From contig OZ245851.1 in assembly GCA_965228975.1 (NCBI GenBank), positions 53,940 through 117,939 of the forward strand: a stretch of DNA of 64,000 bases, read 5' to 3'. Made by a program: the position numbers and the translations under genes. Shown here piece by piece: positions 2,628 to 46,861 of this stretch. Source of the DNA: Alphaproteobacteria bacterium (GTDB taxonomy: Bacteria; Pseudomonadota; Alphaproteobacteria; UBA8366). The notes below the pieces were generated by a model. The model saw only the letters and a list, made by a program, of their open reading frames with translations, was not told the DNA's origin and ran no database searches. Numbering within the stretch: position 1 is the stretch's first letter; each line of letters starts with the position of its first letter.

Positions 2628-2748
2628 GGGTGCGCGGTCCGTTGTGGATTGGGGCCCGCCGCAAGTCTTAATTAACAATGGTTACCAAAAGGTTGCCTGC
2701 GGCCCGACATAGAGTCCGCCGGCCCGCATAAAAGAAGGAGTGCGAAGA

Positions 2749-6584: not shown

Positions 6585-6941
6585 CGGTCTTCTCCTTTAC
6601 TTCTTTCGCACTCGGTGGAACGGAAAAGTTCCTAATGAATGAATAATCGAGGCAACCGGACGGAAACCGGCGGTCGGCCGTGGACCGTACGATCGCGGGG
6701 CCGTCTTCCGGCGGCGCGCGGGCGGGGGTTCCGGCCAAACCTGAAACCCGATGGGTCTCAGGCCGGTCCGGCGTGCCCGCCCGCGGTCCGCAGGGATCGG
6801 GACGCGCGAGCAGCGCGGTTCGAGGCGGCGTCGTGCCTGGCCTCGGCGCGGCGGGACAAACGTCCCGCCGATCCGAAACCTGGCTTCCGTCCGGCACCCC
6901 AGAAATCAATTTGGCTATAGATTCTGCTTTAAAGGCAGTTT

Positions 6942-7014
6942 CTGGATGGGAGGAATCGAACCTCCGACAGCTGAATCCTAAGTTCAGTGCTCTATCCAAC
7001 TGAGCTACATCATG
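6942..7014 (-). tRNA. tRNA-like gene with a class-I body and anticodon UAG; acceptor stem imperfect, so possibly a pseudo-tRNA
   Basis: Hand fold: D arm GCTC-AGTTGGATA-GAGC. Anticodon arm CTGAA-CTTAGGA-TTCAG. 5-nt variable loop CTGTC. T arm GGAGG-TTCGATT-CCTCC. Acceptor CATGATG/CATCCAG has 2 mismatches, no CCA is encoded, and the 5' end overlaps the CCA of the upstream tRNA. Confidence 0.45.
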
Positions 7015-7087
7015 GAGCCGATGACGGGACTCGAACCCGCGTCCTGCGGATTATGATCCGCTGCTCTACCAGCTGAGCTACATCGGC
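7013..7087 (-). tRNA. tRNA-Met-like gene (anticodon CAU) with encoded CCA; the anticodon loop appears 1 nt short
   Basis: Hand fold: acceptor GCCGATG/CATCGGC. D arm GCTC-AGCTGGTA-GAGC. Anticodon arm GCGGA-TCATAA-TCCGC. Variable loop AGGAC. T arm GCGGG-TTCGAGT-CCCGT. Ends TCCA. Total 75 nt. Confidence 0.6.
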
Positions 7088-9349: not shown

Positions 9350-10897
9350 TCAGGCGCGATACGGGAAAGAAGTCGGGCCGAGCAGGCCGGGTAGCAGCGG
9401 CTGTGTCCATTCGATCCAGCGGCACAGCATCGGACGGGTTTCGCGCGGGTCGATTAGGTCGTGCATCGAGAAGGACTCGGCGCGCGCGGCGGGTGACTGC
9501 TTACGGGCGAGCATTTCCTCCAGTTCCTGCCGCCGGGCCTCCGGGTCGGGGGCGGCGGCGATCTCGCGTCCGTAGGCGACCGCGACGCCGCCTTCGACCG
9601 GCAAGGCGCCCATTTCCGCCGACGGCCAGGCCAGGACATAGGCGTCGGGGCCGTAATGCGCCGCCTGCGCCACGCCGAATGATTTCCGCACCACCACCGA
9701 GGCCCAGGGCACCGAACAGTCGGCAACCGCAAGCACGGCGGCGGTGCCGTAACGGATCGTGCCTGCGCGTTCGGATTCGCTGCCGATCATGAAGCCCGGT
9801 TCGTCGACGAAGCTGACGATCGGCAAATGGAAGGTTTCGCAAATCTCGACGAAACGGCGCACCTTCATCGCGCCGTTCGCGCTCATCGCACCGGCGTAGT
9901 ACCGGCAGTCGTTGCCGATGACGCCGACGGGTTGGCCGTTCAGCCGGGCGAAGCCGGTGATCTGGCCGCGTCCGAAGGCGCGCGTCATCTCGAAGAAGCT
10001 GTCCCGGTCCACGATATGGGCAATGGTCTTGCGCATGTCGAAGACCTTGCGCCGGTCGCGCGGCACGATCCCGGCCAGTTCCTCGTCCTTTCGGTTCGGA
10101 TCGTCGTCCGGGGCGGCGACGGGCGGCAGTTCCCAGACGTTGGATGGCAGGTAGCTCAGAAAACGGCGGATTTGATCGAAGGCGTCCGCGTCGTCCTTGG
10201 CGACGTTGTCGGCCACGCTGTTGCGGCCATGGACCTGTGCGCCGCCCAGTTCCTCCTTGGTGACCTTCTCCCGCAGGGCGCGTTCGACAACCGCCGGTCC
10301 GGCGATGAGGATCTGTGCCGTTTCCTTGGTCATGACGGAAAAATGCGCCGCGACGAAACGCGAGGCGGGCAGCCCCGCGACCGGGCCGAGCGCGGCGGTC
10401 ACGACTGGCACGCTGGCCAGTGCGCGCGCCACGGAGCGAAACCGCGGCGGGGAATAGGGCGGCGTGCCGACCGTCTTGGACCCGGTCCCGGCGACGCTGC
10501 CGCCGCCGCCTTCGTGTAACCGGATCAGCGGCACCTTGTACTGACAGGCCAGTTCTTCGGCGTAGATGCTCTTGCGCAGACCGGCCTCGTTGGGCGATCC
10601 GCCACGCAAGGTGAAGTCCTCGCCGCCGATGATACAGCGGCGGCCATCGACCATGCCGAAGCCGAGCACGAAGTTCGCGGGAGAGAAGGAGTCGAGCGAG
10701 CCGTCGTCGTTCCTCTCGGCGGCCCCGGACGCGCCGCCCAGTTCGTCGAAACTGTCAGTGTCCAGCAGTCCATCGATCCGCTCGCGAACCGTCTGGCGGC
10801 CTTGCGCATGCTGCCGGGCCACGCCTTCCTCGCCGCCCAACTCCTTGGCGAGCGACCGCTTACGCTCGATGTCCTCGATTTCCTTGTCCCAACTCAT
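9350..10897 (-). CDS. acyl-CoA carboxylase carboxyltransferase (beta) subunit
   Basis: Carboxyl-transferase family pattern throughout (GGEDFTLRGGS..., GQPVGVIGNDCRYYAGA...). Start taken at ATG 10897 (MSWDKEIEDIE). Confidence 0.85.
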   Translation of the reverse strand: MSWDKEIEDIERKRSLAKELGGEEGVARQHAQGRQTVRERIDGLLDTDSFDELGGASGAAERNDDGSLDSFSPANFVLGFGMVDGRRCIIGGEDFTLRGGSPNEAGLRKSIYAEELACQYKVPLIRLHEGGGGSVAGTGSKTVGTPPYSPPRFRSVARALASVPVVTAALGPVAGLPASRFVAAHFSVMTKETAQILIAGPAVVERALREKVTKEELGGAQVHGRNSVADNVAKDDADAFDQIRRFLSYLPSNVWELPPVAAPDDDPNRKDEELAGIVPRDRRKVFDMRKTIAHIVDRDSFFEMTRAFGRGQITGFARLNGQPVGVIGNDCRYYAGAMSANGAMKVRRFVEICETFHLPIVSFVDEPGFMIGSESERAGTIRYGTAAVLAVADCSVPWASVVVRKSFGVAQAAHYGPDAYVLAWPSAEMGALPVEGGVAVAYGREIAAAPDPEARRQELEEMLARKQSPAARAESFSMHDLIDPRETRPMLCRWIEWTQPLLPGLLGPTSFPYRA

Positions 10898-11175
10898 ACG
10901 CGCTTCCTTAAGTCGAAAAATGACGCTTCCAAATGGCAATCCGGATTCTGCGCCCTAGTTATTTTGATCAGGGGATGAGTATCACGGTCGCGGCGACTTT
11001 CCGAATGTCCGGATTTTAGGCTGTTCGTTTGATCGATTACACGGACGAACCGGCGTGAGCGCAAGTTTGTCAGTAATCGACGCGATTGCCGAAGCGGCGC
11101 TTTGTGGCTGTCGCCACTGCTGTTATAGAGTCCCCCAATTGCCTTGCGGACGATCGACGAGGGAGAGTACCGACA

Positions 11176-12033
11176 ATGTTTAAACGATTTTTTGCTGCGC
11201 TGATCCTGGTGTTCGGGTTTGGGTCGGCGGTTGCGGCGGAGACGTTCGTCTTTACCGCCATACCCGATCAGGACGAGAGTCGCTTGAAAGAGCGTTTCGG
11301 AAAAATCGCGGACTATCTGTCCAAGGAATTGAACACGACCGTGAAATACGTGCCGGTGAAGAGCTATGCCGCCGCGGTTACGGCCTTCAAGAACAACCAG
11401 GTTCAGCTCGCGTGGTTCGGCGGCCTGTCGGGCGTGCGCGCAAGGGCTTCGGTGCCGGGGTCGGTGGCGATCGCGCAAGGATACGAGGACCAATTCTTCG
11501 AGACCTATTTCATCGCGAACGAGAAGGCCGGATTGGCGCTGTCCAAGGAATTCCCGAAAGAGATCGCTGGCAAGACCTTCACCTTCGGGTCCAAGGGGTC
11601 CACGTCGGGCCGCCTGATGCCCGAGTTCCATATCCGCCGGAACTTCGGCAAGGCACCCGAAAAGGTGTTCGAACGGGTGGGTTTCAGCGGCGATCACTCC
11701 CGGACGATCGCATTGGTGCAGTCCGGCGCGTATCAGGTCGGCGCGGTGAACTACAAGGTCTGGAAGAAGGAACTGGACGCCGGCAAGATCGATCCCAAGA
11801 AGGTCTCGATCATCTGGCGGACGCCGCCTTACCCCGACTATCAGTGGAGCATCCGCGGCGACGTGGATAAGAAATTCGGCGCGGGCTTCCAGAAGAAGGT
11901 GACGGGGGCTTTGCTGGGGATGAAGGATCCAGCGCTGCTCGAGTCCTTTCCGCGCAGCAAGTTCATTCCGGCGACCAACGACGACTACAAGATGATCGTG
12001 GATACCGGAAAGGAAATCGGTCTTATCGACTGA
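11176..12033 (+). CDS. PhnD-type ABC substrate-binding protein; putative selenium oxyanion (selenate/selenite) binding protein by selD linkage
   Basis: Signal peptide MFKRFFAALILVFGFGSAVAA. PhnD-like pattern (TFVFTAIPDQDESRL..., AWFGGLSG). GGGAGAG RBS before ATG 11176. It is the first gene of an operon that ends in the SelD fusion. Confidence 0.8.
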   Translation: MFKRFFAALILVFGFGSAVAAETFVFTAIPDQDESRLKERFGKIADYLSKELNTTVKYVPVKSYAAAVTAFKNNQVQLAWFGGLSGVRARASVPGSVAIAQGYEDQFFETYFIANEKAGLALSKEFPKEIAGKTFTFGSKGSTSGRLMPEFHIRRNFGKAPEKVFERVGFSGDHSRTIALVQSGAYQVGAVNYKVWKKELDAGKIDPKKVSIIWRTPPYPDYQWSIRGDVDKKFGAGFQKKVTGALLGMKDPALLESFPRSKFIPATNDDYKMIVDTGKEIGLID

Positions 12034-12689
12034 TGGCGCTTGTCGACCTCTCTCTCGCGACCGCGGGCTACAACGGCGCGAACGTCCTGCACGACGTGTC
12101 GTTGTCGATCGAGCGGGGCGAGAAGGTCGCATTGGTCGGCCGGAGCGGGGCGGGCAAGTCCACCCTGCTTCGGCTGATATACGAGCGTATCGATGGCGAG
12201 GCCGCGATGGTTCCGCAGGAACTCGGCCTCGTCCGCGCGCTCACCGTGTTCCACAACATCTACATGGGTCAGCTCAATCGCCACAGCACCTGGCGCAATG
12301 TGGTGAACTTGGTGCGGCCCATGCAGCAGGAAGTCGAGAATATCGGCGGCATCGTGAAGACGCTTGGCCTGGAGGACGAGTTGTTCTCCGCCGTCGGTGC
12401 GTTGTCCGGCGGCCAGCAGCAGCGGACGGCCGTGGGCCGGGCCTTGTATCAGCGGACCGACATTCTGCTCGGCGACGAACCGGTATCGGCGGTGGACGAG
12501 CATCAGTCCCGGGCGATCCTGGAAAGCATCGCCGACGCGAAGCCCACGGTGATCCTGGCGATGCATGATATCGATCTCGCGCTCGCCTATTCCGATCGGG
12601 TTATCGGGTTGGACGCCGGTCGCATCGTCATGGACGAGTCGACCGACGGTATGAAAGCCACCGACCTCGACTTCCTCTATCGAGGCTGA
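12033..12689 (+). CDS. ABC transporter ATP-binding protein (PhnC-like)
   Basis: Walker A GRSGAGKST, signature LSGGQQQR, Walker B ILLGDEP. TGATG overlap with the SBP gene. Confidence 0.9.
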   Translation: MALVDLSLATAGYNGANVLHDVSLSIERGEKVALVGRSGAGKSTLLRLIYERIDGEAAMVPQELGLVRALTVFHNIYMGQLNRHSTWRNVVNLVRPMQQEVENIGGIVKTLGLEDELFSAVGALSGGQQQRTAVGRALYQRTDILLGDEPVSAVDEHQSRAILESIADAKPTVILAMHDIDLALAYSDRVIGLDAGRIVMDESTDGMKATDLDFLYRG

Positions 12690-12694
12690 TCGGC

Positions 12695-14191
12695 ATGCAG
12701 GCGGTTTGGCGCTATTCTCCGGCGGTTCGGACCAGTCTGACTTTCGTCGGCATCGCTTTCCTGTGTTTGGTTTTCGCCGATATCTCGATCTCGACGGTAA
12801 ACCCGTGGACCGAGATGGGGCGTTTGCTGTTCGGCATCGTGACCCCGGATTTCCTGGCCACCGAAAGCCTGGTCAACGCCCTCGTGCAGACGATCGCCTT
12901 CGCAATCCTGGGCGTCGTCGTCGGGAATATCGCCGGGTTTTTCCTCGCGCTGATTTTTCACTATCGCGCCGTGCGCGTCGGTTGCGCATTCGTGCGCGCG
13001 ATCCATGAGCTGTTTTGGGCGCTGATCTTTCTGCAGGTTTTCGGCCTATCGCCGATCACCGGCATACTGGCCATCGGCATCCCCTATGCAGGGATCATCG
13101 CGAAGGTCTACGCCGAGATCATGGAAGAGGCCGACACCACGCCGCTCAAATCGGTGCCGCCGAACACGACCGCTACATCCGTTTTCATCTTTGTGCGCTT
13201 GCCGGACGTATGGGCGCATTTCAAGACCTACTCGCTCTACCGTCTCGAGTGCGGATTGCGGTCGAGCGCGGTGCTCGGCTTCGTCGGCCTGCCGACGTTG
13301 GGCTATTACCTCGAAACGGCGTTCCGCCAAGGGCATTATTCGGAAGTTTCCGCCCTGTTGATCATGTTCTACATCGTGATCGCGACCATGCGGGTATGGA
13401 TGCGCCGTAACTTGCTGCCGCTATACATCCTGGCCGCAATCCTGCTGCTGCCTTGGGGCGGCAACGAAATCTACGCCGACAACATCGTCCGGTTCTTCAC
13501 CCAGGACATCGTCCCGCAGCCGCTGCGCGACGGCGTGTTCGCCACGGGTGCGCTAACCGGGTTCGGCGAGTGGCTGTCGACGCTGTTCTTCGATCAGGCG
13601 CTGCCCGGCGCGATCGATACGCTGCAATTGACGATGATCGCACTGGTTGCGACCGGTGTCTTGTCGCTGATCTTTTTCCCGTTGTTGTCGCCGCTGTTCT
13701 TCGGCCGCGGCGGCCGGTTGGGCGGGCATGTGTTCCTGGTCGTCGTCCGGTCCACGCCGGAATACATTCTGGCGTATGTCTGCCTGCAGCTTTGGGGGCC
13801 GTCGATGCTGCCCGCGATCATCGCCTTGTCGCTGCATAACGGCGCGATCATTGCGCATCTGATCGGCCGCTATACGGAACACATGAAAGTTCGGGTCGAC
13901 GCGCCGCGCGGGCTCAATCTCTATTTCTACGAATCGGTGCCGCGCGTCTACGGGCAGCTCTTGGCGTTCCTGTTCTATCGCTGGGAAGTGATTTTACGTG
14001 AGACCGCAATTCTAGGCATGCTGGGTATCGCGACGCTCGGCTTCTATGTGGACAGCGCCTTTGCGGATATCCGGCTGGACCGCGCGTTGGTGCTGATATT
14101 GTTCACGGCCGGCCTGAATATTTGCGTCGATGCGTTGTCGCGGCACATCCGCGCGCGGCTGCGTCTCAAGACGACCATCGAACATGGGTGA
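12695..14191 (+). CDS. ABC transporter permease (PhnE-like, duplicated/fused)
   Basis: 498 aa, hydrophobic throughout, with two PhnE-like halves. Starts 5 nt after the ATPase gene. Confidence 0.85.
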   Translation: MQAVWRYSPAVRTSLTFVGIAFLCLVFADISISTVNPWTEMGRLLFGIVTPDFLATESLVNALVQTIAFAILGVVVGNIAGFFLALIFHYRAVRVGCAFVRAIHELFWALIFLQVFGLSPITGILAIGIPYAGIIAKVYAEIMEEADTTPLKSVPPNTTATSVFIFVRLPDVWAHFKTYSLYRLECGLRSSAVLGFVGLPTLGYYLETAFRQGHYSEVSALLIMFYIVIATMRVWMRRNLLPLYILAAILLLPWGGNEIYADNIVRFFTQDIVPQPLRDGVFATGALTGFGEWLSTLFFDQALPGAIDTLQLTMIALVATGVLSLIFFPLLSPLFFGRGGRLGGHVFLVVVRSTPEYILAYVCLQLWGPSMLPAIIALSLHNGAIIAHLIGRYTEHMKVRVDAPRGLNLYFYESVPRVYGQLLAFLFYRWEVILRETAILGMLGIATLGFYVDSAFADIRLDRALVLILFTAGLNICVDALSRHIRARLRLKTTIEHG

Positions 14192-14196
14192 TCCTC

Positions 14197-16461
14197 GTGC
14201 AATCGACCACACCGATCCTTAAAGACCTCGTTCTCGTCGGCGGCGGCCACAGTCATGTCGGCGTGCTCCGGTCCTTCGGCATGAAGCCGATACCGGGCGT
14301 GCGCCTGACGGTCCTTTGCCGCGACGTGGACACGCCCTATTCGGGGATGTTACCGGGGCTGGTGGCGGGGCATTACACTTTCGAGGAAACCCATATCGAT
14401 CTCGGTCCGCTGGCCCGCTTCGCCAATGCGCGTTTCTACAACGACGACGTGATCGGGATCGACCCGCGTCAGCGGTTGGTGTTGTGCAAGAACCGCCCGC
14501 CGGTGTCCTACGACTTGCTGTCCATCAACATCGGGTCCGCCCCGGCGACCTGGGAAACGCCGGGCGCCGAGGGCAATGTGGTGCCGGTCAAGCCGATCAA
14601 CCGGTTCGTCGCGCATTGGGAACGCCTGCGTGAACGCATCCTGCTGCGCGAGGACCCGGTGCGGATCGGCATCGTCGGCGGCGGCGCGGGCGGGGTGGAA
14701 TTGCTGCTCGCCATCCAATACCGGCTGAAGACCCTGTTGGCCGGCCAAGGGCGGACCGACGCGCATCTGGATTATCATCTGATCAGCGAAGAGTCGGATA
14801 TCCTGACCACGCATAACCCGCTGGTCCGGTCCAAGTTCCGGCGTATCTTCAATGAGCGCGGCATCAACTTTCACGCGGATACGCGCGTCGCGTCGGTCGC
14901 GCCCGGCAAGGTAATAGCCGCCGACGGCGAGAGCATCGCGTTGGATGAAATCCTCTGGGTGACCCGGGCCGGCGCCGCATCGTGGATCAAGGAGTCCGGA
15001 TTGGCGGTCGACGAGCACGGCTTCATGCAAGTCGGCGACACCCTGCAGTCGACGTCGCACCCCGAAATCTTCGGCGCGGGCGATATCGCGGCGATGGTCA
15101 ATCATCCGCGCCCGAAGGCGGGCGTCTTTGCCGTGCGTCAGGGCCCGCCGTTGACGCGAAACCTGCGGCGCATGCTGGTCGGCAAGTCCGCGCGACCGTT
15201 CAGGCCGCAGCGCGAGTTCCTCAGCCTGATCAGCACGGGGGACAAATATGCGGTTGCCTCGCGTTCCAAATGGTCGGTAGAGGGCAAGCTGGTCTGGCGT
15301 TGGAAGGACTGGATCGACCGGCGTTTCATGCGCAAGTTCAGCGAGCTCCCGGAAATGGACACGGAGGAGAAGTCCGATCTGCCGCGTGGTCTGGCGGGCG
15401 AGGAGGTGATCAAGGAAATCTCCGCGGTCGCCATGCGCTGCGGCGGCTGTGGCGCCAAAGTCGGTGCGACGGTGTTGCAGCGGGCCTTGTCGCAGTTGGA
15501 GCCGGTGACGCGCGATGACGTTTTGATCGGATTACACGAACCGGACGATGCTGCGGTGGTCGAAGTGCCGCCGGGCAAGGTGATGGTGCATACGGTCGAT
15601 TCGTTCCGCGCCATTGTCGACGACCCGTATCTTTTCGGCCGCATCGCCGCCAATCACAGCCTCGGCGATATCTACGCGATGGGCGCCGATCCGCAGACCG
15701 CGCTGGCAATCGCCACAGTGCCCTACGGGCTGGAGGAGAAGGTCGAGGACGTATTGTCCCAAATGCTGACCGGCGCAATGGAGGTCTTGCGGGAATCGAA
15801 CACGTCGCTGGTCGGTGGCCACACCAGCGAAGGCGCGGAGCTATCGCTTGGTTTTTCCGTTAACGGCCTGATCGACCGCGAGAAGGTGTTGCGCAAGGGC
15901 GGCATGCAGCCGGGCGACCGGCTGGTGCTGACGAAGGCGATCGGAACCGGCACATTGTTCGCTGCCGACATGCGCCTGAAAGCGAAAGGGCAGTGGATCA
16001 AGGACGCCCTCGCCTCGATGGTGCTGTCGAACTACAAGGGCGCGCAATGCCTGTCCGACCACGGCGCGAATGCGTGCACCGACGTCACCGGCTTCGGGTT
16101 GTTGGGACATTTGGTAGAGATGACCAAACCGTCGGGCGTCGACGTGGAATTGGACCTCGGCGCCATCCCGTATCTCGATGGCGCGCAGGAAACAGTGGCG
16201 GCCGGCATTACCAGCACCTTGCAGCCGCAGAACCTGCGGCTCCGACGTGCCATATCCAATATTGCCGCGGTCGGCGAGGATCCGCGCTTTCCGTTGATCT
16301 TCGATCCGCAGACCGCCGGCGGTTTGCTGGCCAGCGTGCCGCAGGAGCGGGCCGAGGATTGCGTCGGCGCATTGCGTGATTTGGGATATGACCGGACGGC
16401 GATCATCGGCACCGTATTGCCCGAGGGGAACCAACTCGAACCGATTACGGTGCGTGCGTAA
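14197..16461 (+). CDS. senC: bifunctional FAD/NAD(P)-binding pyridine-nucleotide-disulfide oxidoreductase-like domain fused to selenide, water dikinase (SelD; SenC-like)
   Basis: The N-terminal part has two Rossmann motifs (LVLVGGGHSHVG; IGIVGGGAGGVE). From about 15400 it is SelD: AMRCGGCGAKVG (Cys-type active site), DDPYLFGRIAANHSLGDIYAMGA, DVTGFGLLGHL, FDPQTAGGLL. Start is GTG 14197 or 14188, directly after the permease stop; the upstream part of the track ORF overlaps the permease and is rejected. Confidence 0.85.
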   Translation: MQSTTPILKDLVLVGGGHSHVGVLRSFGMKPIPGVRLTVLCRDVDTPYSGMLPGLVAGHYTFEETHIDLGPLARFANARFYNDDVIGIDPRQRLVLCKNRPPVSYDLLSINIGSAPATWETPGAEGNVVPVKPINRFVAHWERLRERILLREDPVRIGIVGGGAGGVELLLAIQYRLKTLLAGQGRTDAHLDYHLISEESDILTTHNPLVRSKFRRIFNERGINFHADTRVASVAPGKVIAADGESIALDEILWVTRAGAASWIKESGLAVDEHGFMQVGDTLQSTSHPEIFGAGDIAAMVNHPRPKAGVFAVRQGPPLTRNLRRMLVGKSARPFRPQREFLSLISTGDKYAVASRSKWSVEGKLVWRWKDWIDRRFMRKFSELPEMDTEEKSDLPRGLAGEEVIKEISAVAMRCGGCGAKVGATVLQRALSQLEPVTRDDVLIGLHEPDDAAVVEVPPGKVMVHTVDSFRAIVDDPYLFGRIAANHSLGDIYAMGADPQTALAIATVPYGLEEKVEDVLSQMLTGAMEVLRESNTSLVGGHTSEGAELSLGFSVNGLIDREKVLRKGGMQPGDRLVLTKAIGTGTLFAADMRLKAKGQWIKDALASMVLSNYKGAQCLSDHGANACTDVTGFGLLGHLVEMTKPSGVDVELDLGAIPYLDGAQETVAAGITSTLQPQNLRLRRAISNIAAVGEDPRFPLIFDPQTAGGLLASVPQERAEDCVGALRDLGYDRTAIIGTVLPEGNQLEPITVRA

Positions 16462-16465
16462 TGTT

Positions 16466-17431
16466 CTATGTGAGCGCGGCGAGGAGCGACCGCCATGCGG
16501 CTTCTTCGTGCTGCGGCTTGAACAGGTGGGCGCGTTCGCGGCATTGGCGCGTCAACGTCTTTAGATAATCGCGGTCGTGCTCGATCCGGTCCAGGCAGGC
16601 CGCAAGCGCAGCCGTGTCGCCGACCGGGAAGTAACCGGCATAATCTTCGCCCAACAGTCCGATCGATCCCGATATGTCCGACGCGATCACCGGGACGTCG
16701 GCGGCAACCGCTTCCGAAACCACATTTGCGCCGCCTTCCATGATCGAACTCAGCACCATCGCGTGGGACGAATCGAAAAGCCGACGCACCTGCCATCCCG
16801 GCGCCTCGCCGCGCCAGTCGTATCTTGGGTTGGTGCTCATCTCACGGCGCGCGCGCTCGGCCCAGCTTTCGTCATGGGCTTTGCCCAGATGCACGATGCG
16901 GATACGGGAATCGTCCGGCAGCAACCGCGCGGCTTCGGCGGCGCGTAGGGGGTCCTTCTCCTCGCGCAGGTGGCCGATGACACAGATGTCCACAGTGCGC
17001 CGCGACGGGCGGCGCGTCCGGTTGAGCGGCAAGGCGGATTGGTGGATGACATGCAATTTGCCATGGAACCGGTCCGGGATGTCCCGATGCACCAATCCGT
17101 GCAGACACACCAGCGCGTCGGCGATGTCCATCGAGTGATAGGTCTCGTCCGGATGGCTCTGCTGGAACTTGTTGATATCGGTTCCCGCCAGCAAGACGAT
17201 CAACGGGCGGTCCGGATACCGTTCGCGGAAGCGGAGGATCGACTTCGCGCTGCGCCAGGCATGCACGGCGATCATCGCGTCGACCGGCTCGTTCTCATAC
17301 TCCGTCGCGATGATGGCCTCATGACCGAGGCGGCGCAGGATGTCCTGCCATCGCACCGCCGTCGTTCGGTTGCCGTTGCGCGATTGTTTGCCTGCGGGCG
17401 TGATAAGGCTAATCTTCAAGCCGTTTCGCAT
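16466..17431 (-). CDS. senB: SenB-like selenosugar synthase (selD-associated glycosyltransferase family)
   Basis: Starts MRNGLKISLITPAGKQSRNGNRTTAVRWQDILRRLGH and contains ...EGGANVVSEAVAADVPVIAS, matching my memory of the selD-linked GT family later named SenB. Start taken at ATG 17431. Confidence 0.7.
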   Translation of the reverse strand: MRNGLKISLITPAGKQSRNGNRTTAVRWQDILRRLGHEAIIATEYENEPVDAMIAVHAWRSAKSILRFRERYPDRPLIVLLAGTDINKFQQSHPDETYHSMDIADALVCLHGLVHRDIPDRFHGKLHVIHQSALPLNRTRRPSRRTVDICVIGHLREEKDPLRAAEAARLLPDDSRIRIVHLGKAHDESWAERARREMSTNPRYDWRGEAPGWQVRRLFDSSHAMVLSSIMEGGANVVSEAVAADVPVIASDISGSIGLLGEDYAGYFPVGDTAALAACLDRIEHDRDYLKTLTRQCRERAHLFKPQHEEAAWRSLLAALT

Positions 17432-17445
17432 TAGATGGTTTGCCC

Positions 17446-18759
17446 ATGACTGAACCCGTCCCCACGTCCCGCTTGATCGACATGATGACAAGCGCGCGGC
17501 GTCGCACGTTGGAAATGGTCCAAGGGTTGACCCCCGACCAGCTCGTTGGCCCCAAGCTGCCGACGTTGAATCCGTTGATTTGGGAAATCGGTCATGTCGG
17601 CTGGTTCTATGAAAACTTCATCCTGCGCCGATTGTACAATCAAGAACCGATGCTCGCGACAGGAGATGCACTTTATGACTCCATCGCGATCGCGCATGAA
17701 ACGCGGTGGGATTTGCCGGTCCTGCCGCTGAACGAAATCCTCGCCTACATGCAGGATGTGCAGGATGCGTTGGTCGACCGTCTCGGCGGCAAGGAGATGG
17801 CGGACGAACGGCACAGCTATCTGTACCAGTTCACAGTCTTTCACGAAGACATGCACACAGAGGCTTTTACCTGGGCGCGGCAGACATTGGCATACCCGAC
17901 GCCGGTCTTCGAGGGCGGTCCGGTTGGTCGGCGGGCACCGGAGACCGGGCCGCTGTCCGGCGACGTGGTGATCATGGGCGGTACGTACCGGATGGGCGCT
18001 GAAAAAAATGCACCCTTTCTATTCGACAATGAAAAATGGGCGCGCCCGGTGACCGTTGCGCCGTTCAAGATGGCGCGGGCGGCGGTCACGAATGGCGAAT
18101 TCGCCGAATTCGTCGCGGACGGCGGATATCAGACGGAATCGCATTGGGACGCGGACGGCTGGGCCTGGCGGCAAGAAGCCGCTGCCGAACACCCGGTCTA
18201 TTGGGTTCCGGACGAGAATGGCGGGTGGGGCGTCCGGCGGTTCGATCGCGTGTTCGAACTGCCGCTCCATCAGCCGGTCATCCACGTCTGCTGGCACGAG
18301 GCCAACGCCTACTGCCGTTGGGCCGGCCGGCGATTGCCGACCGAGGCGGAATGGGAGTTGGCGGCGACGACGGTACCGGAAACGACCGACGGCGTTTTGC
18401 AGAAGCGCCGGTACCCTTGGGGCGACGAGGAGCCGACGCCGGACCACGCAAACCTCGACGGCTTTGCATTGGGTTGTGTCGATGTCGCGGCGCATCCGGC
18501 GGGTGACAGCGCCTATGGTTGCCGGCAGATGATCGGCAATGTCTGGGAGTGGACGCAGGACGTCTTCAAGCCGTTTCCCGGGTTCGCGCCGGACGACTAC
18601 AAGGAATACTCGCAGCCGCTGTTCGATTCGACGCGCGTGCTACGGGGCGGCGCGTGGACCACGCGGGGGCGAATGATCACGTCGCTGTACCGCAATTATT
18701 TCGGTCCGGACCGGCGCGATGTGTTCGCCGGGTTCCGGACCTGTGCCTTGTCCGCCTAA
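17446..18759 (+). CDS. senA: SenA-like C-Se bond-forming non-heme iron enzyme (DinB_2 + FGE-sulfatase fold, EgtB/OvoA superfamily)
   Basis: NPLIWEIGHVGWFYENF and FHEDMHTEAF supply the DinB-type His ligands. The FGE-sulfatase-like C-terminal half contains GGTYRMG, HVCWHEANAYCRWAGRRLPTEAEWE and RVLRGGAW. Adjacent to the SenB-like and SelD genes. Confidence 0.75.
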   Translation: MTEPVPTSRLIDMMTSARRRTLEMVQGLTPDQLVGPKLPTLNPLIWEIGHVGWFYENFILRRLYNQEPMLATGDALYDSIAIAHETRWDLPVLPLNEILAYMQDVQDALVDRLGGKEMADERHSYLYQFTVFHEDMHTEAFTWARQTLAYPTPVFEGGPVGRRAPETGPLSGDVVIMGGTYRMGAEKNAPFLFDNEKWARPVTVAPFKMARAAVTNGEFAEFVADGGYQTESHWDADGWAWRQEAAAEHPVYWVPDENGGWGVRRFDRVFELPLHQPVIHVCWHEANAYCRWAGRRLPTEAEWELAATTVPETTDGVLQKRRYPWGDEEPTPDHANLDGFALGCVDVAAHPAGDSAYGCRQMIGNVWEWTQDVFKPFPGFAPDDYKEYSQPLFDSTRVLRGGAWTTRGRMITSLYRNYFGPDRRDVFAGFRTCALSA

Positions 18760-20921
18760 CCCGCGTCGCGTTTCACGATCAGGGCGTCGACGATCGACAC
18801 GCCTTCGCCGGCCGGGTGGACGAGCACCGGATTCAGGTCGATCTCCGCGATGATGTCCGCGTGATCGGCGGCGAGTTGCGAAAGTTTCACGATCAGGTCG
18901 AGCAGTGCGTCGAGGTCGGCGGGGGCGCCGCCGCGCACCCCATCCAGGATCTTCCGGCCTTTCAGCCGGTCCAATACCTGTGCCGCCGCGTCGGTGGTCA
19001 ACGGCACCGGAGAGAAGGCGACGTCGCGCAGCACTTCGACATGGATGCCGCCGAGCCCGACCATCAGCATCGGGCCGAAGGCGTCATCACGATTGATCCC
19101 GAGGATGATTTCCTGACCGCGCTTCGCCATCGGCTGTACCAGCACACCGTGAATGTCCGGATTGCCGCTACCGGTTTTCTTGTGATAGGCGGTGGCGTTC
19201 TTGGTAAGGGTTGAGAAAGCTTCTTGGACGGTCGCCGCATCGTCCAAGCCGAGCGCGACCGCACCGGCATCGGTTTTGTGCAATACGTCCGGCGATTGGA
19301 CCTTGAGGGCGACCGGACCGCCGATTTCGTCGAGCGCTTCCAGGGCTTCGTCCGGCGTTTTCGCCAAACGGCCGTCCGGCACGGAAATGCCGTAGGCGGC
19401 GAGAACGGGCATGGCCTGATACTCGCACAGGACGGGACCTGCATCGGCAAGCAGGGGAACGGCCGTTTCCTTGATCTTTGCAGACGTGGTCGTGATCTCC
19501 GGCGTCTTCAGGAATCGGTCGCGGAACGCACGGTAATCGGCCATCGTCGCCATCGTGCGGGCGCAGTTCCGCATGTTGGTGTAGAGCGGGTAGCCCGCGC
19601 GGTTCAGCAGCTCCATCGCCGTGCCGCGGTTCAGTGTGTAGCTGCAGAACAGGATCGGCTTCTCGCACTCTTCGGCGACCTTTCGCAGGTTTTCCTCTTC
19701 CCGCTCGTAGCCGGCGGCGTTGCGAGCCGACGTCACCACGATCACCGAATCCACTTCAGGGGATTGCGCGACCATTCCCGCGAAGTTGCCGTAGCCGACC
19801 ACGCGGATTGCCTGTGCGGTGCCGTCCACCGGATTCTGCGACGTGCCGTAGGGCGGCAGGTATTCGTCGATGACCGCGCGGGTTGCGGCGTCCAACGGCG
19901 GCACCACGAGGCCGGCCGCTTCGCAGCTGTCGGCCATCCATCCGCCGCCGCCGCCCGATCCGGTGGCGATTCCGACCCGCTTGCCCAGCGGCAGTTTGTT
20001 GCGGTAGCGCGAGAACCCGGCGGCGACGTCGACGATATCCTCGATATCGTAGCCTTCGATCACGCCGTACCGGTCGAACATCGCCTTATAGGCCGTGTAG
20101 GCGCCGGTCATGGCCGCCGTGTGCGAGGCGGCGGCGCGTTGCCCGGCTTCCGACCGGCCGATCTTGGTCAGGATGATCGGCTTACCGGCGCGCAGCGCCT
20201 TCTCGGCGATGGGGGCGAAGCGTTCCGGATTCTTGATGTCCTCCATGAACATCAGGATCACCTCGGTCTTGCCGTCGTCGAGCATGTAGTCGACGAAATC
20301 CAGTCCCGAGAGGCAGGCTTCGTTGCCGGTGGTCATCACGTAGCTGAACGGCAATTCCTTCGGCCGGCCCCGGTCGTAAAAGGAGAAACCGATGCCGCCG
20401 CTTTGCGCCGTAACGCCGATATATCCGTCGGACCGGTGCGGCGGCACGAGCGGCAGGTCGGGATTATCCACCGTCGCGCTGAACGTGGCGCAGAGCGGGG
20501 CCAGCATGTTGGCGAAGCCTTCGGAATTGGGGCCGCCGACCGCGAGGTCGTATTTCTCGGCGATTGCCCGAATTTCGTCCTGCAGAACGTCGCCCGCTTC
20601 GCCGGCTTCTTCCGCGAACCCGGAACTGATGATCATTGCGGCGCGCACGCCGGCTTCGCCGCAGTCGGTCAATGCCTCCGCGACATTCTCCGCCGGGATC
20701 ACAAGCACCGCGAGATCGACGCGTTCGGGGATGTCGGCGATCGTCCGGTAGGCCTTCAGGCCGTTGATCTCGTCGTTGCTGCGGCTGACGGGATAAATAT
20801 TGCCGGGGAATTCGTGACAGCCGAGGACATGCATGATGCGGCCGCGAATGATGTGCGCGTTCGGCGAGGCGCCGATGACCGCTACGGATTTCGGGGACAG
20901 AAGCGCGGAGATGTCGGGCAT
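18756..20921 (-). CDS. ADP-forming acyl-CoA synthetase (acetate--CoA ligase family); order is CoA-binding then ATP-grasp
   Basis: N-terminal SVAVIGASPN CoA-binding Rossmann fold. C-terminal ATP-grasp (GPVALKVQSPDVLHKTDAGAVALGL). Start at ATG 20921. Confidence 0.85.
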   Translation of the reverse strand: MPDISALLSPKSVAVIGASPNAHIIRGRIMHVLGCHEFPGNIYPVSRSNDEINGLKAYRTIADIPERVDLAVLVIPAENVAEALTDCGEAGVRAAMIISSGFAEEAGEAGDVLQDEIRAIAEKYDLAVGGPNSEGFANMLAPLCATFSATVDNPDLPLVPPHRSDGYIGVTAQSGGIGFSFYDRGRPKELPFSYVMTTGNEACLSGLDFVDYMLDDGKTEVILMFMEDIKNPERFAPIAEKALRAGKPIILTKIGRSEAGQRAAASHTAAMTGAYTAYKAMFDRYGVIEGYDIEDIVDVAAGFSRYRNKLPLGKRVGIATGSGGGGGWMADSCEAAGLVVPPLDAATRAVIDEYLPPYGTSQNPVDGTAQAIRVVGYGNFAGMVAQSPEVDSVIVVTSARNAAGYEREEENLRKVAEECEKPILFCSYTLNRGTAMELLNRAGYPLYTNMRNCARTMATMADYRAFRDRFLKTPEITTTSAKIKETAVPLLADAGPVLCEYQAMPVLAAYGISVPDGRLAKTPDEALEALDEIGGPVALKVQSPDVLHKTDAGAVALGLDDAATVQEAFSTLTKNATAYHKKTGSGNPDIHGVLVQPMAKRGQEIILGINRDDAFGPMLMVGLGGIHVEVLRDVAFSPVPLTTDAAAQVLDRLKGRKILDGVRGGAPADLDALLDLIVKLSQLAADHADIIAEIDLNPVLVHPAGEGVSIVDALIVKRDAG

Positions 20922-20982
20922 GATGTCGGGTGTCCTGTCTGGACCTCTTGTTGTTCGGACGATAGCGGCCGGTGCTAGTGAA

Positions 20983-22143
20983 TCAGCGCAGCCCCAGGCC
21001 ACGGGCGATGATGCCGCGCAGGATTTCCCGCGTGCCGCCCTGTATGGTGAGTTTGGGTGCGATCAGTGTCGCGAAGCGCATCAGCTCGTCGAAATCAGCA
21101 CGGTTGCTGGGATCGGATTGTGCAAATGCCGACAGCTCGCGTGCCTTCGCCGGCAGCGTTTGTTCCCAGTTCGTGCCGAGATCCTTGACAACCGACCCTT
21201 CGAGCACCGGCTCCTTCCCCGCCGCGAGCATGCCGTTCACCGAAATCGACATGCGGCGCAATGTATGAAGCTGCGCGACCAGGCGGCCGATGCCTTCGGC
21301 CCCGCGCACGTCCGGTTCCTTTCCGAGCACGTTGACCAGTTCCGGCAGGATGTAAATCGTCTCGAGGAATCGTTCCGGCCCGCTCCGTTCGTAGGCGAGT
21401 TCGCTGGTCGCCTGTTTCCAGGCGGAGTCGATCTCCCCCAGAACCGCGTTTTCCGGCAGTATCGCATCCTCGAAGATGACTTCGTTGAATTCGTGGTTGC
21501 CGGTCAAGTGCAGGAGCGGACGCACCGTGATGCCCGGCGTGCTCATATCCACCAGGAACTGCGTCAGGCCGTGCCGGCGGTTGTCCTCGGTCGCCGGCGA
21601 TGTGCGGAACAGGCCGATCATGTAGTGCGAGCGATGCGCGTTGCTGGTCCAGACCTTGCGGCCGTTGATGCGCCAGCCGTCGGCGGTCTTCTCCGCCTTC
21701 GTCTTGGCGGCGAACAGGTCGGAGCCGGAATCCGGCTCGCTCATGCCGATGCAGAAATAGCATTCGCCGCGGGTGATGCGCGGCACGATGTCCTGCTTGA
21801 CCTCTTCCGGCGCGTATTTCAGCAGCATCGGGCCGCTTTGCCGGTCGGCGGTGAAATGCGCCCGGGTCGGCGCGCCGGCGACCCGGAATTCTTCGGTCAC
21901 CACGTAGCGTTCCAGGAAGCTGCGCTCGTGGCCGCCATACTCCTTGGGCCACGTCAGGCCGATCCATCCGCGTTCGCCGACTTTCCGGCTGAATTCGGGA
22001 TTGAATCCTTTGCCGAGATGCGCGGTTTGCGGATCGAAGGTGCCGGCGGCGATTTCATCCTTGAGAAAGGCGCGGACTTCCTTGCGAAGCGCCTCGGCTT
22101 CGGGCGGGAGGCGGATCGGGTCGAATTCGATTGTGCTCGACAT
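20983..22143 (-). CDS. acyl-CoA dehydrogenase
   Basis: ACAD pattern (GWIGLTWPKEYGG, CIGMSEPDSGSDL, GGTREILRGIIAR). Start at ATG 22143 (MSSTIEFDP). Confidence 0.9.
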   Translation of the reverse strand: MSSTIEFDPIRLPPEAEALRKEVRAFLKDEIAAGTFDPQTAHLGKGFNPEFSRKVGERGWIGLTWPKEYGGHERSFLERYVVTEEFRVAGAPTRAHFTADRQSGPMLLKYAPEEVKQDIVPRITRGECYFCIGMSEPDSGSDLFAAKTKAEKTADGWRINGRKVWTSNAHRSHYMIGLFRTSPATEDNRRHGLTQFLVDMSTPGITVRPLLHLTGNHEFNEVIFEDAILPENAVLGEIDSAWKQATSELAYERSGPERFLETIYILPELVNVLGKEPDVRGAEGIGRLVAQLHTLRRMSISVNGMLAAGKEPVLEGSVVKDLGTNWEQTLPAKARELSAFAQSDPSNRADFDELMRFATLIAPKLTIQGGTREILRGIIARGLGLR

Positions 22144-39146: not shown

Positions 39147-39296
39147 ACATCGCCGTCGAGATTCGCCCTGTCATGGGGCAATGTGTATTATCCCGCCCGG
39201 CACCGGCCAACCGTTTAGGTGCCGTCCCGCCAGCGGGCGGCCCGTGCATTGGGCACGCCTCGGCATCCAACAACCCCACAGTTAGAAGAAGAAAGA

Positions 39297-46621: not shown

Positions 46622-46652
46622 TGCGTCCTCCTGCGCCGCATCCGGCGCCATG

Positions 46653-46684: not shown

Positions 46685-46699
46685 CTCCCAACGGACGCT

Positions 46700-46760
46700 C
46701 CGACCTTTTAGCTGGGTTGTTTTCCGTGGCCGCAAGCCGGTCGGGCCAAATCACCACGTC
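46700..46760 (-). promoter_or_regulatory. structured metZ leader; candidate SAM-II-like riboswitch aptamer
   Basis: The minus strand reads CGUGG-UGAUUUGGCCCGACCGGCUUGCGG-CCACG-GAAAACAACCCAGCUAAAAGG. It has a P1 stem plus GAUUU, GCUU and AGCUAAAA elements reminiscent of SAM-II, but I could not confirm the pseudoknot pairing by hand. Confidence 0.35.
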
Positions 46761-46861
46761 CCGGGACTTTGGGCGGATGGCGGGAAAATGTCAACAGAAT
46801 CTTCCATCGGCGGCCAAGCCGGGTAAACTCGCTGGCATGGCGGCAGTTCGAGGAGGATGTG

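What the first reader, a model, noticed from the sequence alone, without database searches (positions are those of the whole stretch)
11176..18759. Selenoneine-type selenium small-molecule cluster: ABC importer, SelD fusion, SenB-like GT and SenA-like C-Se synthase
Six contiguous genes form a selenium-dedicated unit. A PhnD/C/E-type ABC importer (11176-14191) is followed within 5 nt by a SelD-containing fusion (14197-16461). Next come a glycosyltransferase of the selD-linked family (16466-17431, minus strand) and an EgtB/OvoA-fold enzyme (17446-18759). The trio of SelD homolog (SenC), selenosugar synthase (SenB) and selenoneine synthase (SenA) is the pathway described in 2022 for selenoneine. 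In that pathway selenophosphate is converted to a selenosugar, and the C-Se bond is then formed on a histidine-derived acceptor. No selA, selB, ybbB or SECIS-like context is visible in this window. The SelD here therefore appears dedicated to small-molecule selenium chemistry rather than to selenoproteins or tRNA modification.
Basis: partly seen in the sequence, partly recalled or inferred. Interest (0 to 1): 0.85.

Follow-up and report, generated by a model that had tools for sequence, protein, structure and literature searches.

The report
Selenoneine (sen) gene cluster with importer

Summary
Four exceed NCBI's curated family cut-offs. These are the putative selenate ABC substrate-binding protein (TIGR04553), the flavoprotein-SelD fusion (TIGR03169 plus TIGR00476), the selenosugar synthase SenB (TIGR04348) and the selenoneine synthase SenA (NF041186).

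One point needed resolving. Overall, the SenA-like protein resembles the ovoselenol enzyme OvsA (38% identity) more than the characterised Variovorax SenA (33%). Its published 17-position active-site motif is nevertheless the SenA (hercynine, C2) type, not the OvsA or EgtB type. A bootstrapped tree also places it among SenA-motif proteins, away from OvsA.

The same layout recurs in related genomes. The importer, the CxxC flavoprotein-SelD fusion and the inverted senB are all found there, and the closest relative has the identical six-gene layout.

The window holds no selA, selB, selU, tRNA-Sec, egtD or ovsM. However, 64 kb cannot show that this SelD is dedicated to small molecules, or where hercynine comes from.

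Verdict: observation confirmed and interpretation supported. This is a new member of a well-described kind, of low to moderate interest. The only uncharacterised parts are the importer's substrate and the role of the flavoprotein domain.

The parts
11176..12033 (+). Periplasmic substrate-binding protein of a PhnD-like ABC importer (putative selenate/selenium-oxyanion binding), 285 aa with a signal peptide
   Evidence: TIGR04553 scores 382 bits against a cut-off of 250. Pfam Phosphonate-bd has E 2.6e-61. A Shine-Dalgarno-like GGGAGAG lies before the ATG. The closest relative has the same 285-aa gene.
12033..12689 (+). ABC transporter ATPase (PhnC-like), 218 aa
   Evidence: Pfam ABC_tran has E 4e-23. 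The best NCBIfam hit is PhnC at 164 bits, below its cut-off. The gene overlaps the SBP stop by 1 nt.
12695..14191 (+). ABC permease, a fused double PhnE-like protein, 498 aa
   Evidence: NCBIfam PhnE scores 200 bits in two stretches, just below its cut-off of 216.7. Pfam gives no hit. The gene is conserved next to the SBP in L001, L004, L022, L027, L077 and L081.
14197..15339 (+). N-terminal NDH-2-like FAD/NAD(P)H flavoprotein domain of the SelD fusion. The start may instead be the GTG at 14188.
   Evidence: TIGR03169 'Nterm_to_SelD' scores 503 bits against a cut-off of 310. Pfam Pyr_redox_2 also hits. The nearest solved relatives are type II NADH dehydrogenases. No cysteine is conserved across 19 homologues.
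15433..16461 (+). C-terminal selenophosphate synthetase (SelD/SenC) domain with a CxxC motif (RCGGCGAK)
   Evidence: TIGR00476 scores 306 bits against a cut-off of 125. Pfam AIRS and AIRS_C hit. Alignment to E. coli SelD 3u0o shows Cys17, Lys20, Asp51, Asp68, Asn87, Asp91 and Asp227 all kept. The CxxC motif is present in all 17 fused homologues examined.
16466..17431 (-). senB, selenosugar synthase (Se-glycosyltransferase), 321 aa
   Evidence: TIGR04348 scores 414 bits against a cut-off of 300. The protein is 39% identical to V. paradoxus SenB (8jjn, 8fbx). N20, T23, H58, R61, T85, D86, Q131, R155, K158, E231 and E239 are kept.
17432..17445 (.). 14-bp spacer between the divergent start codons of senB and senA
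   Evidence: Read directly from the sequence. The closest relative L081 has the same spacing, and the spacer is 15-40 bp in 14 other divergent loci.
17446..18759 (+). senA, non-haem-iron selenoxide synthase (selenoneine synthase), 437 aa. It is the 'long' form that keeps residues 313-363, which V. paradoxus SenA lacks.
   Evidence: NF041186 scores 483 bits against a cut-off of 420, versus 336 bits for EgtB. The composite motif NEH/HR/HMH/YY/NYF/R is the SenA class. Tree and bootstraps support the placement.

Best explanation
This is a chromosomal selenoneine (sen) biosynthetic cluster of an uncultured alphaproteobacterium, preceded by its own selenium uptake and activation operon.

Proposed flow:
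1. The PhnD/C/E-like ABC importer takes up a selenium oxyanion. This step is inferred, and the substrate has never been shown.
2. The flavoprotein-SelD fusion converts reduced selenium plus ATP into selenophosphate. The SelD chemistry was shown for homologues. The role of the flavoprotein domain is inferred. Most likely it uses NAD(P)H and FAD to reduce selenium held on the SelD CxxC loop.
3. SenB transfers GlcNAc from a UDP-sugar to selenophosphate and cleaves the Se-P bond, giving the selenosugar SeGlcNAc. This was shown for V. paradoxus SenB, and the catalytic residues are conserved here.
4. SenA uses Fe(II) and O2 to join the selenosugar to C2 of hercynine as a selenoxide. The selenoxide eliminates the sugar to give selenoneine. 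This was shown for V. paradoxus SenA and is inferred here from the motif.
5. Hercynine must come from an EgtD encoded outside this window.
For: - Four proteins exceed curated equivalog or hypothetical-equivalog cut-offs: TIGR04553, TIGR03169 with TIGR00476, TIGR04348 (SenB) and NF041186 (SenA).
- The solved-structure relatives are SenB, SelD, and OvsA, EgtB and SenA.
- The SenA active-site motif is xNEH--HRHMHYYNYFR. This matches the published SenA rule xNEH--HRHxHYYN(F/Y)(F/Y)R. It does not match OvsA (..YMQAYR) or EgtB-I (xSDH--RRHQHYYNWDR) (PMC11030361).
- The EgtB thiol-binding pair Arg87/Asp416 is replaced by His and Phe. The 2022 paper states this holds for all SenA proteins.
- In the NJ tree, EgtB-I separates from SenA plus OvsA in 100 of 100 bootstraps. 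The query's clade is supported 100 of 100. It is sister to OvsA in only 1 of 100.
- SenB keeps K158, N20, T23 and E231.
- SelD keeps Cys17 and Lys20 and the Asp and Asn ligands.
- Synteny: 66 of 81 loci with a SenA relative have senB adjacent. Of these loci, 17 have the fused flavoprotein-SelD and 8 have the SBP. L081, whose SenA is 89% identical, has the identical six-gene layout and the same flanks.
- NCBI names proteins 63-69% identical to this one 'selenoneine synthase SenA'.
- Kayrouz et al. 2022 already reported a putative selenate transporter next to many sen clusters.
Against: - No egtD lies in the window or within 10 kb in the closest relative. The acceptor supply is therefore unverified.
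- SenA is only 33% identical to the one biochemically characterised SenA. By raw score it is closer to OvsA at 38%.
- The importer's substrate and the function of the flavoprotein domain have no experimental support in the papers searched.
- All functional claims rest on homology. No product can be demonstrated here.
Confidence: 0.82

Rival explanations
1. This is an ovoselenol (ovs) cluster. The NHISS enzyme would be an OvsA that selenylates C5 of free histidine, with a later N-pi methylation.
For: The best solved-structure match is OvsA from Halomonas utahensis: 303 and 294 bits, against 211 bits for V. paradoxus SenA, with 38% versus 33% identity. No egtD is in the window, and lack of egtD is typical of ovs organisms.
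Against: - The three specificity-determining positions read Y388, N417, Y418. This is the SenA type (Y/N/F or Y), not the OvsA type (M/Q/A).
- The query scores higher against the OvsA-YNF mutant, which was engineered to behave as SenA, than against wild-type OvsA.
- The tree puts OvsA in a separate clade supported 100 of 100. The query is its sister in 1 of 100 bootstraps.
- No methyltransferase gene of any kind was found in the window.
- OvsA is reported almost exclusively from aquatic gammaproteobacteria. This window carries an alphaproteobacterial SAM riboswitch.
Confidence: 0.03
2. The EgtB-fold enzyme is an ordinary sulfur-specific EgtB-I for ergothioneine that merely sits next to selenium genes.
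For: The NCBIfam EgtB model still scores 336 bits, just under its cut-off of 360. The protein is 37% identical to M. thermoresistibile EgtB. JGI pipelines name close homologues 'ergothioneine biosynthesis protein EgtB'.
Against: - The EgtB-I motif residues S/D, R87, Q137, W415 and D416 are replaced by N/E, H, M, Y and F.
- The EgtB-I clade is separated in 100 of 100 bootstraps.
- The SenA model scores 147 bits higher.
- No egtA, egtC, egtD or egtE is nearby.
- senB is adjacent in 66 of 81 related loci.
Confidence: 0.02
3. The cluster makes a different end product. This could be the selenosugar itself or a selenoimidazole on another acceptor. The reasons would be that the organism lacks hercynine, or that this divergent long-form SenA and this SenB have different specificities.
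For: There is no egtD in 64 kb. SenA is only 33% identical to the characterised enzyme. SenB differs from V. paradoxus SenB at sugar-pocket positions V157E and H235N.
Against: - The hercynine-binding motif is intact.
- E157 (37 of 64) and N235 (63 of 64) are the majority states among SenBs adjacent to SenA homologues. V. paradoxus is the outlier, not this protein.
- The long form is found in 23 of 41 SenA-motif representatives.
- Most sen clusters lack a co-localised egtD and draw on the egt pathway.
Confidence: 0.08
4. The SelD fusion is the cell's general selenophosphate synthetase. It would also feed selenocysteine and/or 2-selenouridine synthesis, and would not be dedicated to the sen pathway.
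For: Mariotti et al. 2015 found selenoproteins and Sec machinery in all genomes carrying extended SelD genes. NADH-dehydrogenase-SelD fusions made up about 40% of Cys-type SelDs in ocean metagenomes, well before sen was known. In L001 the flavoprotein stands alone in the cluster, with no SelD domain there. SelD can therefore be supplied from elsewhere.
Against: No selA, selB, selU or tRNA-Sec lies in the window. The fusion is tightly embedded in the cluster, 5 nt after the importer genes and 4 nt from senB. This reading is compatible with the best explanation. It contradicts only the word 'dedicated'.
Confidence: 0.3

Closest known systems
sen (selenoneine) biosynthetic gene cluster senABC of Variovorax paradoxus DSM 30034 (Kayrouz et al. 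2022, bioRxiv 10.1101/2022.04.13.486033; structures 8k5i, 8fbx, 8jjn)
   Same: It has the same three enzyme families: SelD/SenC, the TIGR04348 glycosyltransferase SenB, and the EgtB-fold NHISS SenA. It has the same SenA composite motif class and the same SenB catalytic Lys and sugar-binding triad. A putative selenate transporter lies nearby, as that paper reported for many sen clusters.
   Different: The sequences are distant: SenA is 33% identical and SenB 39%. This SenA is the long form, keeping a roughly 50-residue segment that V. paradoxus SenA lacks. senB is inverted between selD and senA, with 4-bp and 14-bp spacers. SelD is fused to an NDH-2-like flavoprotein. I could not establish whether V. 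paradoxus SenC also has that domain.
ovs (ovoselenol) cluster: OvsA, OvsM, SenB and SenC of Halomonas utahensis and Marinobacter (Kayrouz et al. 2024, PMC11030361; structures 8u41, 8u42, 8ux5)
   Same: It uses the same selenosugar cassette (SenB plus SelD). OvsA is the most similar solved NHISS overall (38% identity) and shares the long-form architecture.
   Different: The specificity residues here are Y/N/Y, where OvsA has M/Q/A. There is no OvsM methyltransferase. The protein sits on a separate branch of the tree. The host is an alphaproteobacterium.
NADH-dehydrogenase-like/SelD fusion proteins with a CxxC motif (Zhang et al. 2008, PMC2398784; Mariotti et al. 2015, PMC4561486; NCBIfam TIGR03169)
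   Same: The flavoprotein domain is N-terminal, SelD is the Cys type, and the CxxC motif sits in the N-terminal glycine-rich loop (RCGGCGAK).
   Different: Nothing differs structurally. In this locus the fusion is set between a putative selenium importer and senB/senA, which suggests its physiological client. Its flavoprotein chemistry remains uncharacterised.
EgtB type I sulfoxide synthase of ergothioneine biosynthesis (M. thermoresistibile, 4x8d)
   Same: It has the same DinB plus FGE-like fold, the three-His iron site, the catalytic Tyr and the hercynine-binding Asn-aromatic pair.
   Different: The thiol-binding residues (Arg87, Asp416, Ser/Asp) are replaced. It lies in a different clade. 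The genomic partners are selenium genes, not egtA, egtC, egtD or egtE.

Membership tests
sen biosynthetic gene cluster (Kayrouz 2022) | Co-localised selD homologue, TIGR04348 glycosyltransferase and egtB homologue | tested here: met
   All three lie within 14197-18759, with spacers of 4 bp and 14 bp.
SenA (selenoneine synthase, NHISS subfamily) | Score at or above the curated cut-off of NCBIfam equivalog NF041186, and above the EgtB and OvoA models | tested here: met
   SenA scores 483 bits against a cut-off of 420. EgtB scores 336 bits and the OvoA N-terminal model 161 bits.
SenA (selenoneine synthase, NHISS subfamily) | Composite active-site motif xNEH--HRHxHYYN(F/Y)(F/Y)R (PMC11030361). It comprises the three-His iron triad, the catalytic Tyr, the hercynine-binding Y/N/aromatic residues, and His and Phe/Tyr in place of EgtB Arg87 and Asp416. 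| tested here: met
   The residues are N42, E47, H50, H84, R87, H133, M136, H137, Y385, Y388, N417, Y418, F419 and R423. The first motif position is unconstrained in the rule (x) and the two gap positions hold no residue, so none of the three was read.
SenA (selenoneine synthase, NHISS subfamily) | Phylogenetic placement with SenA-motif proteins, outside EgtB-I and outside OvsA | tested here: met
   The NJ tree used 58 sequences and 370 columns. The EgtB-I split is supported 100 of 100, OvsA monophyly 100 of 100, and the query is sister to OvsA in 1 of 100. This was a distance method only. Maximum likelihood was not run.
SenA (selenoneine synthase, NHISS subfamily) | Catalyses C2 selenylation of hercynine with a selenosugar | not testable with these tools
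   This needs an enzyme assay. It has been shown only for V. paradoxus SenA and for the OvsA-YNF mutant.
SenB (selenosugar synthase, TIGR04348) | Score at or above the curated cut-off of the equivalog model | tested here: met
   The score is 414 bits against a cut-off of 300. The next family scores 103 bits.
SenB (selenosugar synthase, TIGR04348) | Catalytic Lys158, the N20/T23/E231 sugar triad, the EGGAHV motif and the selenophosphate pocket (H58, R61, T83, T85, R155) (PMC10891094) | tested here: met
   K159, N21, T24, E232, H57, R60, T84 and R156 are kept. The motif reads EGGANV, and N is found in 63 of 64 relatives. T83 is Ala and V157 is Glu, with Glu in 37 of 64 relatives.
SelD / SenC selenophosphate synthetase | SelD equivalog score, the catalytic Cys (or Sec) and Lys in the N-terminal Gly-rich loop, and the conserved Asp and Asn ATP/metal ligands | tested here: met
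   TIGR00476 scores 306 bits against a cut-off of 125. The loop reads RCGGCGAK. The equivalents of D51, D68, N87, D91 and D227 are present in the alignment to E. coli SelD. The residue roles are taken from my own knowledge of the E. coli enzyme.
NADH-dehydrogenase-like/SelD fusion (TIGR03169 class) | N-terminal pyridine-nucleotide-disulfide-oxidoreductase-family domain fused to a Cys-type SelD with a CxxC motif | tested here: met
   TIGR03169 scores 503 bits against a cut-off of 310. The CxxC motif is present here and in 17 of 17 fused homologues. The related 'fusion_not_SelD' model TIGR04369 is not met: 479 bits against a cut-off of 700.
Putative selenate ABC transporter (TIGR04553 system) | SBP above the curated cut-off, with its own ATPase and permease | tested here: met
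   The SBP scores 382 bits against a cut-off of 250. The PhnC-like and double PhnE-like partners are translationally coupled to it. Substrate specificity cannot be tested here.
OvsA / ovs cluster (ovoselenol) | Composite motif ending YMQAYR (Met401, Gln430, Ala431), with an OvsM N-pi-methyltransferase co-occurring | tested here: not met
   The query has Y388, N417 and Y418. No methyltransferase was found in the window.
EgtB type I (ergothioneine) | Composite motif xSDH--RRHQHYYNWDR | tested here: not met
   Of the 14 motif residues read, 7 differ, including both thiol-binding residues.

The most novel reading that the evidence does not exclude
The importer, the NDH-2-like flavoprotein domain and the CxxC SelD may form a self-contained line. 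It would take a selenium oxyanion from outside the cell to selenophosphate without relying on general thiol chemistry. In this reading the flavin reduces selenium bound to the SelD CxxC loop, since the flavoprotein domain itself has no conserved cysteine. This would give a function to a fusion that has been unexplained since 2008, and a substrate to an uncharacterised transporter family. A more radical reading is less likely, at about 0.07. In it, this divergent long-form SenA and its SenB make a selenometabolite other than selenoneine.
Probability: 0.35. Interest if true: 0.5.

Novelty: new member of a known kind. Interest (0 to 1): 0.25.

Why it matters
The locus adds one more sen cluster from an uncultured alphaproteobacterium, with an unusually complete layout, to a family counted at 827 clusters in 2022 and 1,514 SenA sequences in 2024. 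Its practical value is as a compact 7.6-kb cassette running importer, reductase-like SelD, SenB and SenA. That cassette could be expressed together with egtD for selenoneine production. It could also be used to test what the flavoprotein domain and the transporter do. It does not change what is known about selenium metabolism.

Tried and rejected
- An exact-sequence look-up of SenA found no public contig.
- The scan of species-representative genomes found nothing closer than 63% identity, so the source organism could not be named. The alphaproteobacterial assignment rests on the SAM_alpha riboswitch and on the taxonomy of the nearest hits.
- One family scan failed because of bad coordinates.
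- OvsA was considered seriously because it was the top structural-database hit. It was rejected on motif, tree and context.
- A disulfide-reductase or sulfide:quinone-reductase-like mechanism for the flavoprotein domain was considered. It was rejected because no cysteine is conserved among 19 homologues.
- SenB pocket substitutions V157E and H235N were considered as a sign of altered sugar specificity. They were rejected because they are the majority states in the family.
- No sigma-70-like promoter, convincing terminator or Rfam element was found inside or upstream of the cluster.
- The SenC engineering paper (PMC11929427) gave no information on the domain architecture of V. paradoxus SenC.
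- A full-text search found no paper characterising TIGR04553 or TIGR03169.

Full report
**1. Observation**

- SBP, 11176-12033 (+)
- ATPase, 12033-12689 (+)
- Permease, 12695-14191 (+)
- Flavoprotein-SelD fusion, 14197-16461 (+)
- Glycosyltransferase, 16466-17431 (-)
- EgtB-fold enzyme, 17446-18759 (+)

The first four genes are coupled. The spacing is a 1-nt overlap, then a 5-nt gap, then either a 5-nt gap or a 4-nt overlap if the GTG at 14188 is used. A GGGAGAG precedes the SBP ATG. In this 63% G+C window the six ORFs have the high third-position G+C typical of real genes. The permease was missed by my filter but is confirmed by homology.

The flanking genes are unrelated.
- Upstream: acyl-CoA carboxyltransferase (9350-10939, -), a metallo-beta-lactamase-fold protein and an enoyl-CoA hydratase.
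- Downstream: an ADP-forming acyl-CoA synthetase (18756-21002, -) and acyl-CoA dehydrogenases.

The unit is therefore bounded at about 11176-18759.

**2. Identity of the parts**

Against NCBIfam, four proteins pass curated cut-offs.
- TIGR04553, putative selenate ABC substrate-binding protein: 382 bits, cut-off 250.
- TIGR03169, 'Nterm_to_SelD' oxidoreductase domain: 503 bits, cut-off 310.
- TIGR00476, SelD: 306 bits, cut-off 125.
- TIGR04348, SenB: 414 bits, cut-off 300.
- NF041186, SenA: 483 bits, cut-off 420.

The ATPase and the permease are PhnC-like and double PhnE-like, both just below their cut-offs. Pfam agrees.

*SenB.* It is 39% identical to the crystallised V. paradoxus enzyme. It keeps Lys158, whose mutation stops Se-P cleavage. 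It also keeps the N20/T23/E231 triad, E239, and the selenophosphate pocket residues H58, R61, T85 and R155 (PMC10891094; mapping). Its differences V157E and H235N are the majority states among 64 SenBs adjacent to SenA homologues. They are therefore not a sign of novelty.

*SelD domain.* It aligns to E. coli SelD with Cys17, Lys20 and the conserved Asp and Asn residues in place. The N-terminal loop reads RCGGCGAK. This is the CxxC motif that Zhang et al. 2008 reported in all NADH-dehydrogenase-SelD fusions (PMC2398784).

**3. The one real ambiguity: SenA, OvsA or EgtB?**

The best solved-structure hit of the EgtB-fold protein is not SenA but OvsA, the ovoselenol selenoxide synthase.
- OvsA: 303 and 294 bits.
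- M. thermoresistibile EgtB: 256 bits.
- V. paradoxus SenA: 211 bits, in two pieces.

Pairwise identities are 38%, 37% and 33% respectively.

Kayrouz et al. 2024 (PMC11030361) classify this enzyme family by a 17-position composite motif.
- SenA: xNEH--HRHxHYYN(F/Y)(F/Y)R
- OvsA: xNEH--HRHxHYMQAYR
- EgtB-I: xSDH--RRHQHYYNWDR

They showed that three substitutions, M401Y/Q430N/A431F, convert OvsA into a hercynine-using, C2-selective SenA.

Reading these positions from the HMMER alignments and from a MAFFT alignment of 99 sequences gives NEH / HR / HMH / YY / NYF / R for the query. That is the SenA class. Consistently, the query scores higher against the OvsA-YNF mutant (8ux5) than against wild-type OvsA (8u41).

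I built an NJ tree from 58 full-length sequences. These were drawn from a search of 1.84 billion cluster representatives, close homologues and the three solved enzymes. The tree gives the following results.
- EgtB-I separates from SenA plus OvsA in 100 of 100 bootstraps.
- OvsA is recovered as a monophyletic branch nested among SenA-motif proteins, as published.
- The query sits in a clade of SenA-motif proteins supported 100 of 100.
- That clade is sister to OvsA in only 1 of 100 replicates.

The low similarity to V. paradoxus SenA has a simple explanation. That enzyme lacks about 50 residues (query 313-363) that EgtB-I, OvsA and 23 of 41 SenA-motif representatives retain.

NCBI already names MAG proteins 63-69% identical to the query 'selenoneine synthase SenA'.

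**4. Context in other genomes**

A scan of one genome per species found 574 relatives. The best is 63% identical, from Alphaproteobacteria and Rhodospirillaceae MAGs.

Of 81 loci examined by tblastn:
- 66 have senB adjacent to the SenA homologue.
- 36 of those are in the same divergent orientation as here, and 28 are co-directional downstream.
- 17 carry the fused flavoprotein-SelD, all with the CxxC motif.
- 6 carry a stand-alone SelD.
- 8 carry the TIGR04553-like SBP.

The closest protein in the large collection is 89% identical. It lies on a 491-kb metagenome contig (L081) with the identical six genes and the same flanking genes. The locus is therefore a stable chromosomal feature of this lineage. 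An alphaproteobacterial SAM riboswitch elsewhere in the window supports the taxon.

**5. What the window does not contain**

None of the roughly 55 called genes gave a Pfam hit to SelA, SelB, SelU, EgtD or any methyltransferase. There is no tRNA-Sec.

Mariotti et al. 2015 found Sec machinery in genomes carrying such fusions. Kayrouz et al. 2022 state that hercynine is normally drawn from a separate egt pathway, with egtD co-localised only in a small subset of clusters.

**6. Mechanism**

Steps shown for homologues in the literature:
- SelD/SenC makes selenophosphate from selenide and ATP.
- SenB makes SeGlcNAc from selenophosphate and UDP-GlcNAc.
- SenA oxidatively couples SeGlcNAc to C2 of hercynine. 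The resulting selenoxide eliminates the sugar to give selenoneine.

Steps inferred for this locus:
- These reactions occur here. This rests on conserved catalytic residues, motif, models and synteny.
- The ABC system imports a selenium oxyanion. This rests on the family name and on its linkage to sen clusters, already noted in 2022.
- The NDH-2-like domain supplies reducing equivalents to make selenide at the SelD active site.

For the last point, three observations are relevant.
- The domain's closest solved relatives are type II NADH dehydrogenases.
- It has both dinucleotide-binding glycine motifs but no conserved cysteine.
- The CxxC motif on the SelD loop is invariant in the fused forms.

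I therefore favour flavin-to-CxxC-bound-selenium reduction over a disulfide-reductase or SQR-type mechanism. This is a hypothesis only.

**7. Novelty and verdict**

Everything here is already described.
- The pathway: 2022, with 827 clusters counted.
- The classification rules: 2024, with 1,514 SenA sequences.
- The neighbouring transporter: 2022.
- The fusion: 2008 and 2015.
- All of the above are captured by NCBI annotation models.

This exact sequence is not in the collections searched, and its nearest relative is about 90% identical. It is therefore a new member of a known kind. Interest is low to moderate at 0.25. The remaining open points are the transporter's substrate, the flavoprotein's role, and how senB and senA are transcribed across a 14-bp spacer. 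These points are generic to the family rather than special to this locus.

Noticed in passing
window 16459-16468 and 17429-17448: senB is inverted inside an otherwise co-directional unit. Its stop codon lies 4 bp from the selD-fusion stop, in convergent orientation. Its ATG lies 14 bp from the senA ATG, in divergent orientation. There is no room for promoters or terminators between the genes, and no good Shine-Dalgarno sequence for either gene. The divergent senB/senA arrangement recurs in 36 of 66 related loci, with spacers as short as 15-40 bp.
   Followed up: partly
L001 7133-8308: L001 is the closest species-representative genome and has the same importer, senB and senA layout. There the flavoprotein is a stand-alone 391-aa protein that ends where the linker to SelD begins in the window. 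No SelD domain is present at that locus.
   Followed up: partly
L081 8873-9020: The closest relative has about 148 extra bases between the selD-fusion stop and the senB stop. The window has only 4 bp at that junction. The insert contains inverted-repeat-like sequence (CCTGAGCTTGTCGAAG ... CTTCGACAGGCTCAG), so it may be a small repeat element or a terminator.
   Followed up: no
L020 526-1452, L053 559-1557, L072 12437-13408: Stand-alone SelD genes lie next to senA/senB in these loci (a Rubrobacter MAG, a Latescibacterota MAG and an unclassified bacterial MAG). Each has an in-frame TGA at the catalytic Cys position, so they are probably selenocysteine-containing SelDs serving a sen cluster.
   Followed up: no
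window 6941-7087 (-): Two adjacent tRNA genes are both atypical. One has a CAU-type anticodon loop that is one base short, and ARAGORN could not assign it. The other is called Leu(UAG) but lacks the long variable arm of bacterial tRNA-Leu and has two mismatches in the acceptor stem. Both pass Rfam's tRNA threshold, at 63 and 56 bits.
   Followed up: partly
window 46688-46767 (-): An alphaproteobacterial SAM riboswitch (SAM_alpha, 58.6 bits) lies directly upstream of a Cys/Met-metabolism PLP enzyme gene (45425-46651, -). It is useful as a taxonomic marker for the window.
   Followed up: no
window 18756-21002 (-) and 39219-41462 (+): These are two paralogous ADP-forming acyl-CoA synthetase-like proteins with permuted domain order. 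One runs CoA-binding, ligase-flavodoxin, ATP-grasp. The other runs ATP-grasp, CoA-binding, ligase-flavodoxin. The window also has two M81/MlrC peptidase paralogues (33498-35000 and 43756-45246).
   Followed up: no
window 801-2678 (-), 53585-55474 (-), 41505-42296 (-), 49668-50450 (-): These four sizeable ORFs (625, 629, 263 and 260 aa) have coding-like third-position G+C but no Pfam match.
   Followed up: no
window 61887-64000 (-): A cystathionine gamma-lyase/synthase-family gene is followed by a PALP plus CBS-domain gene that looks like cystathionine beta-synthase and is cut by the window end. This suggests a transsulfuration pair. No link to the selenium cluster is evident.
   Followed up: no
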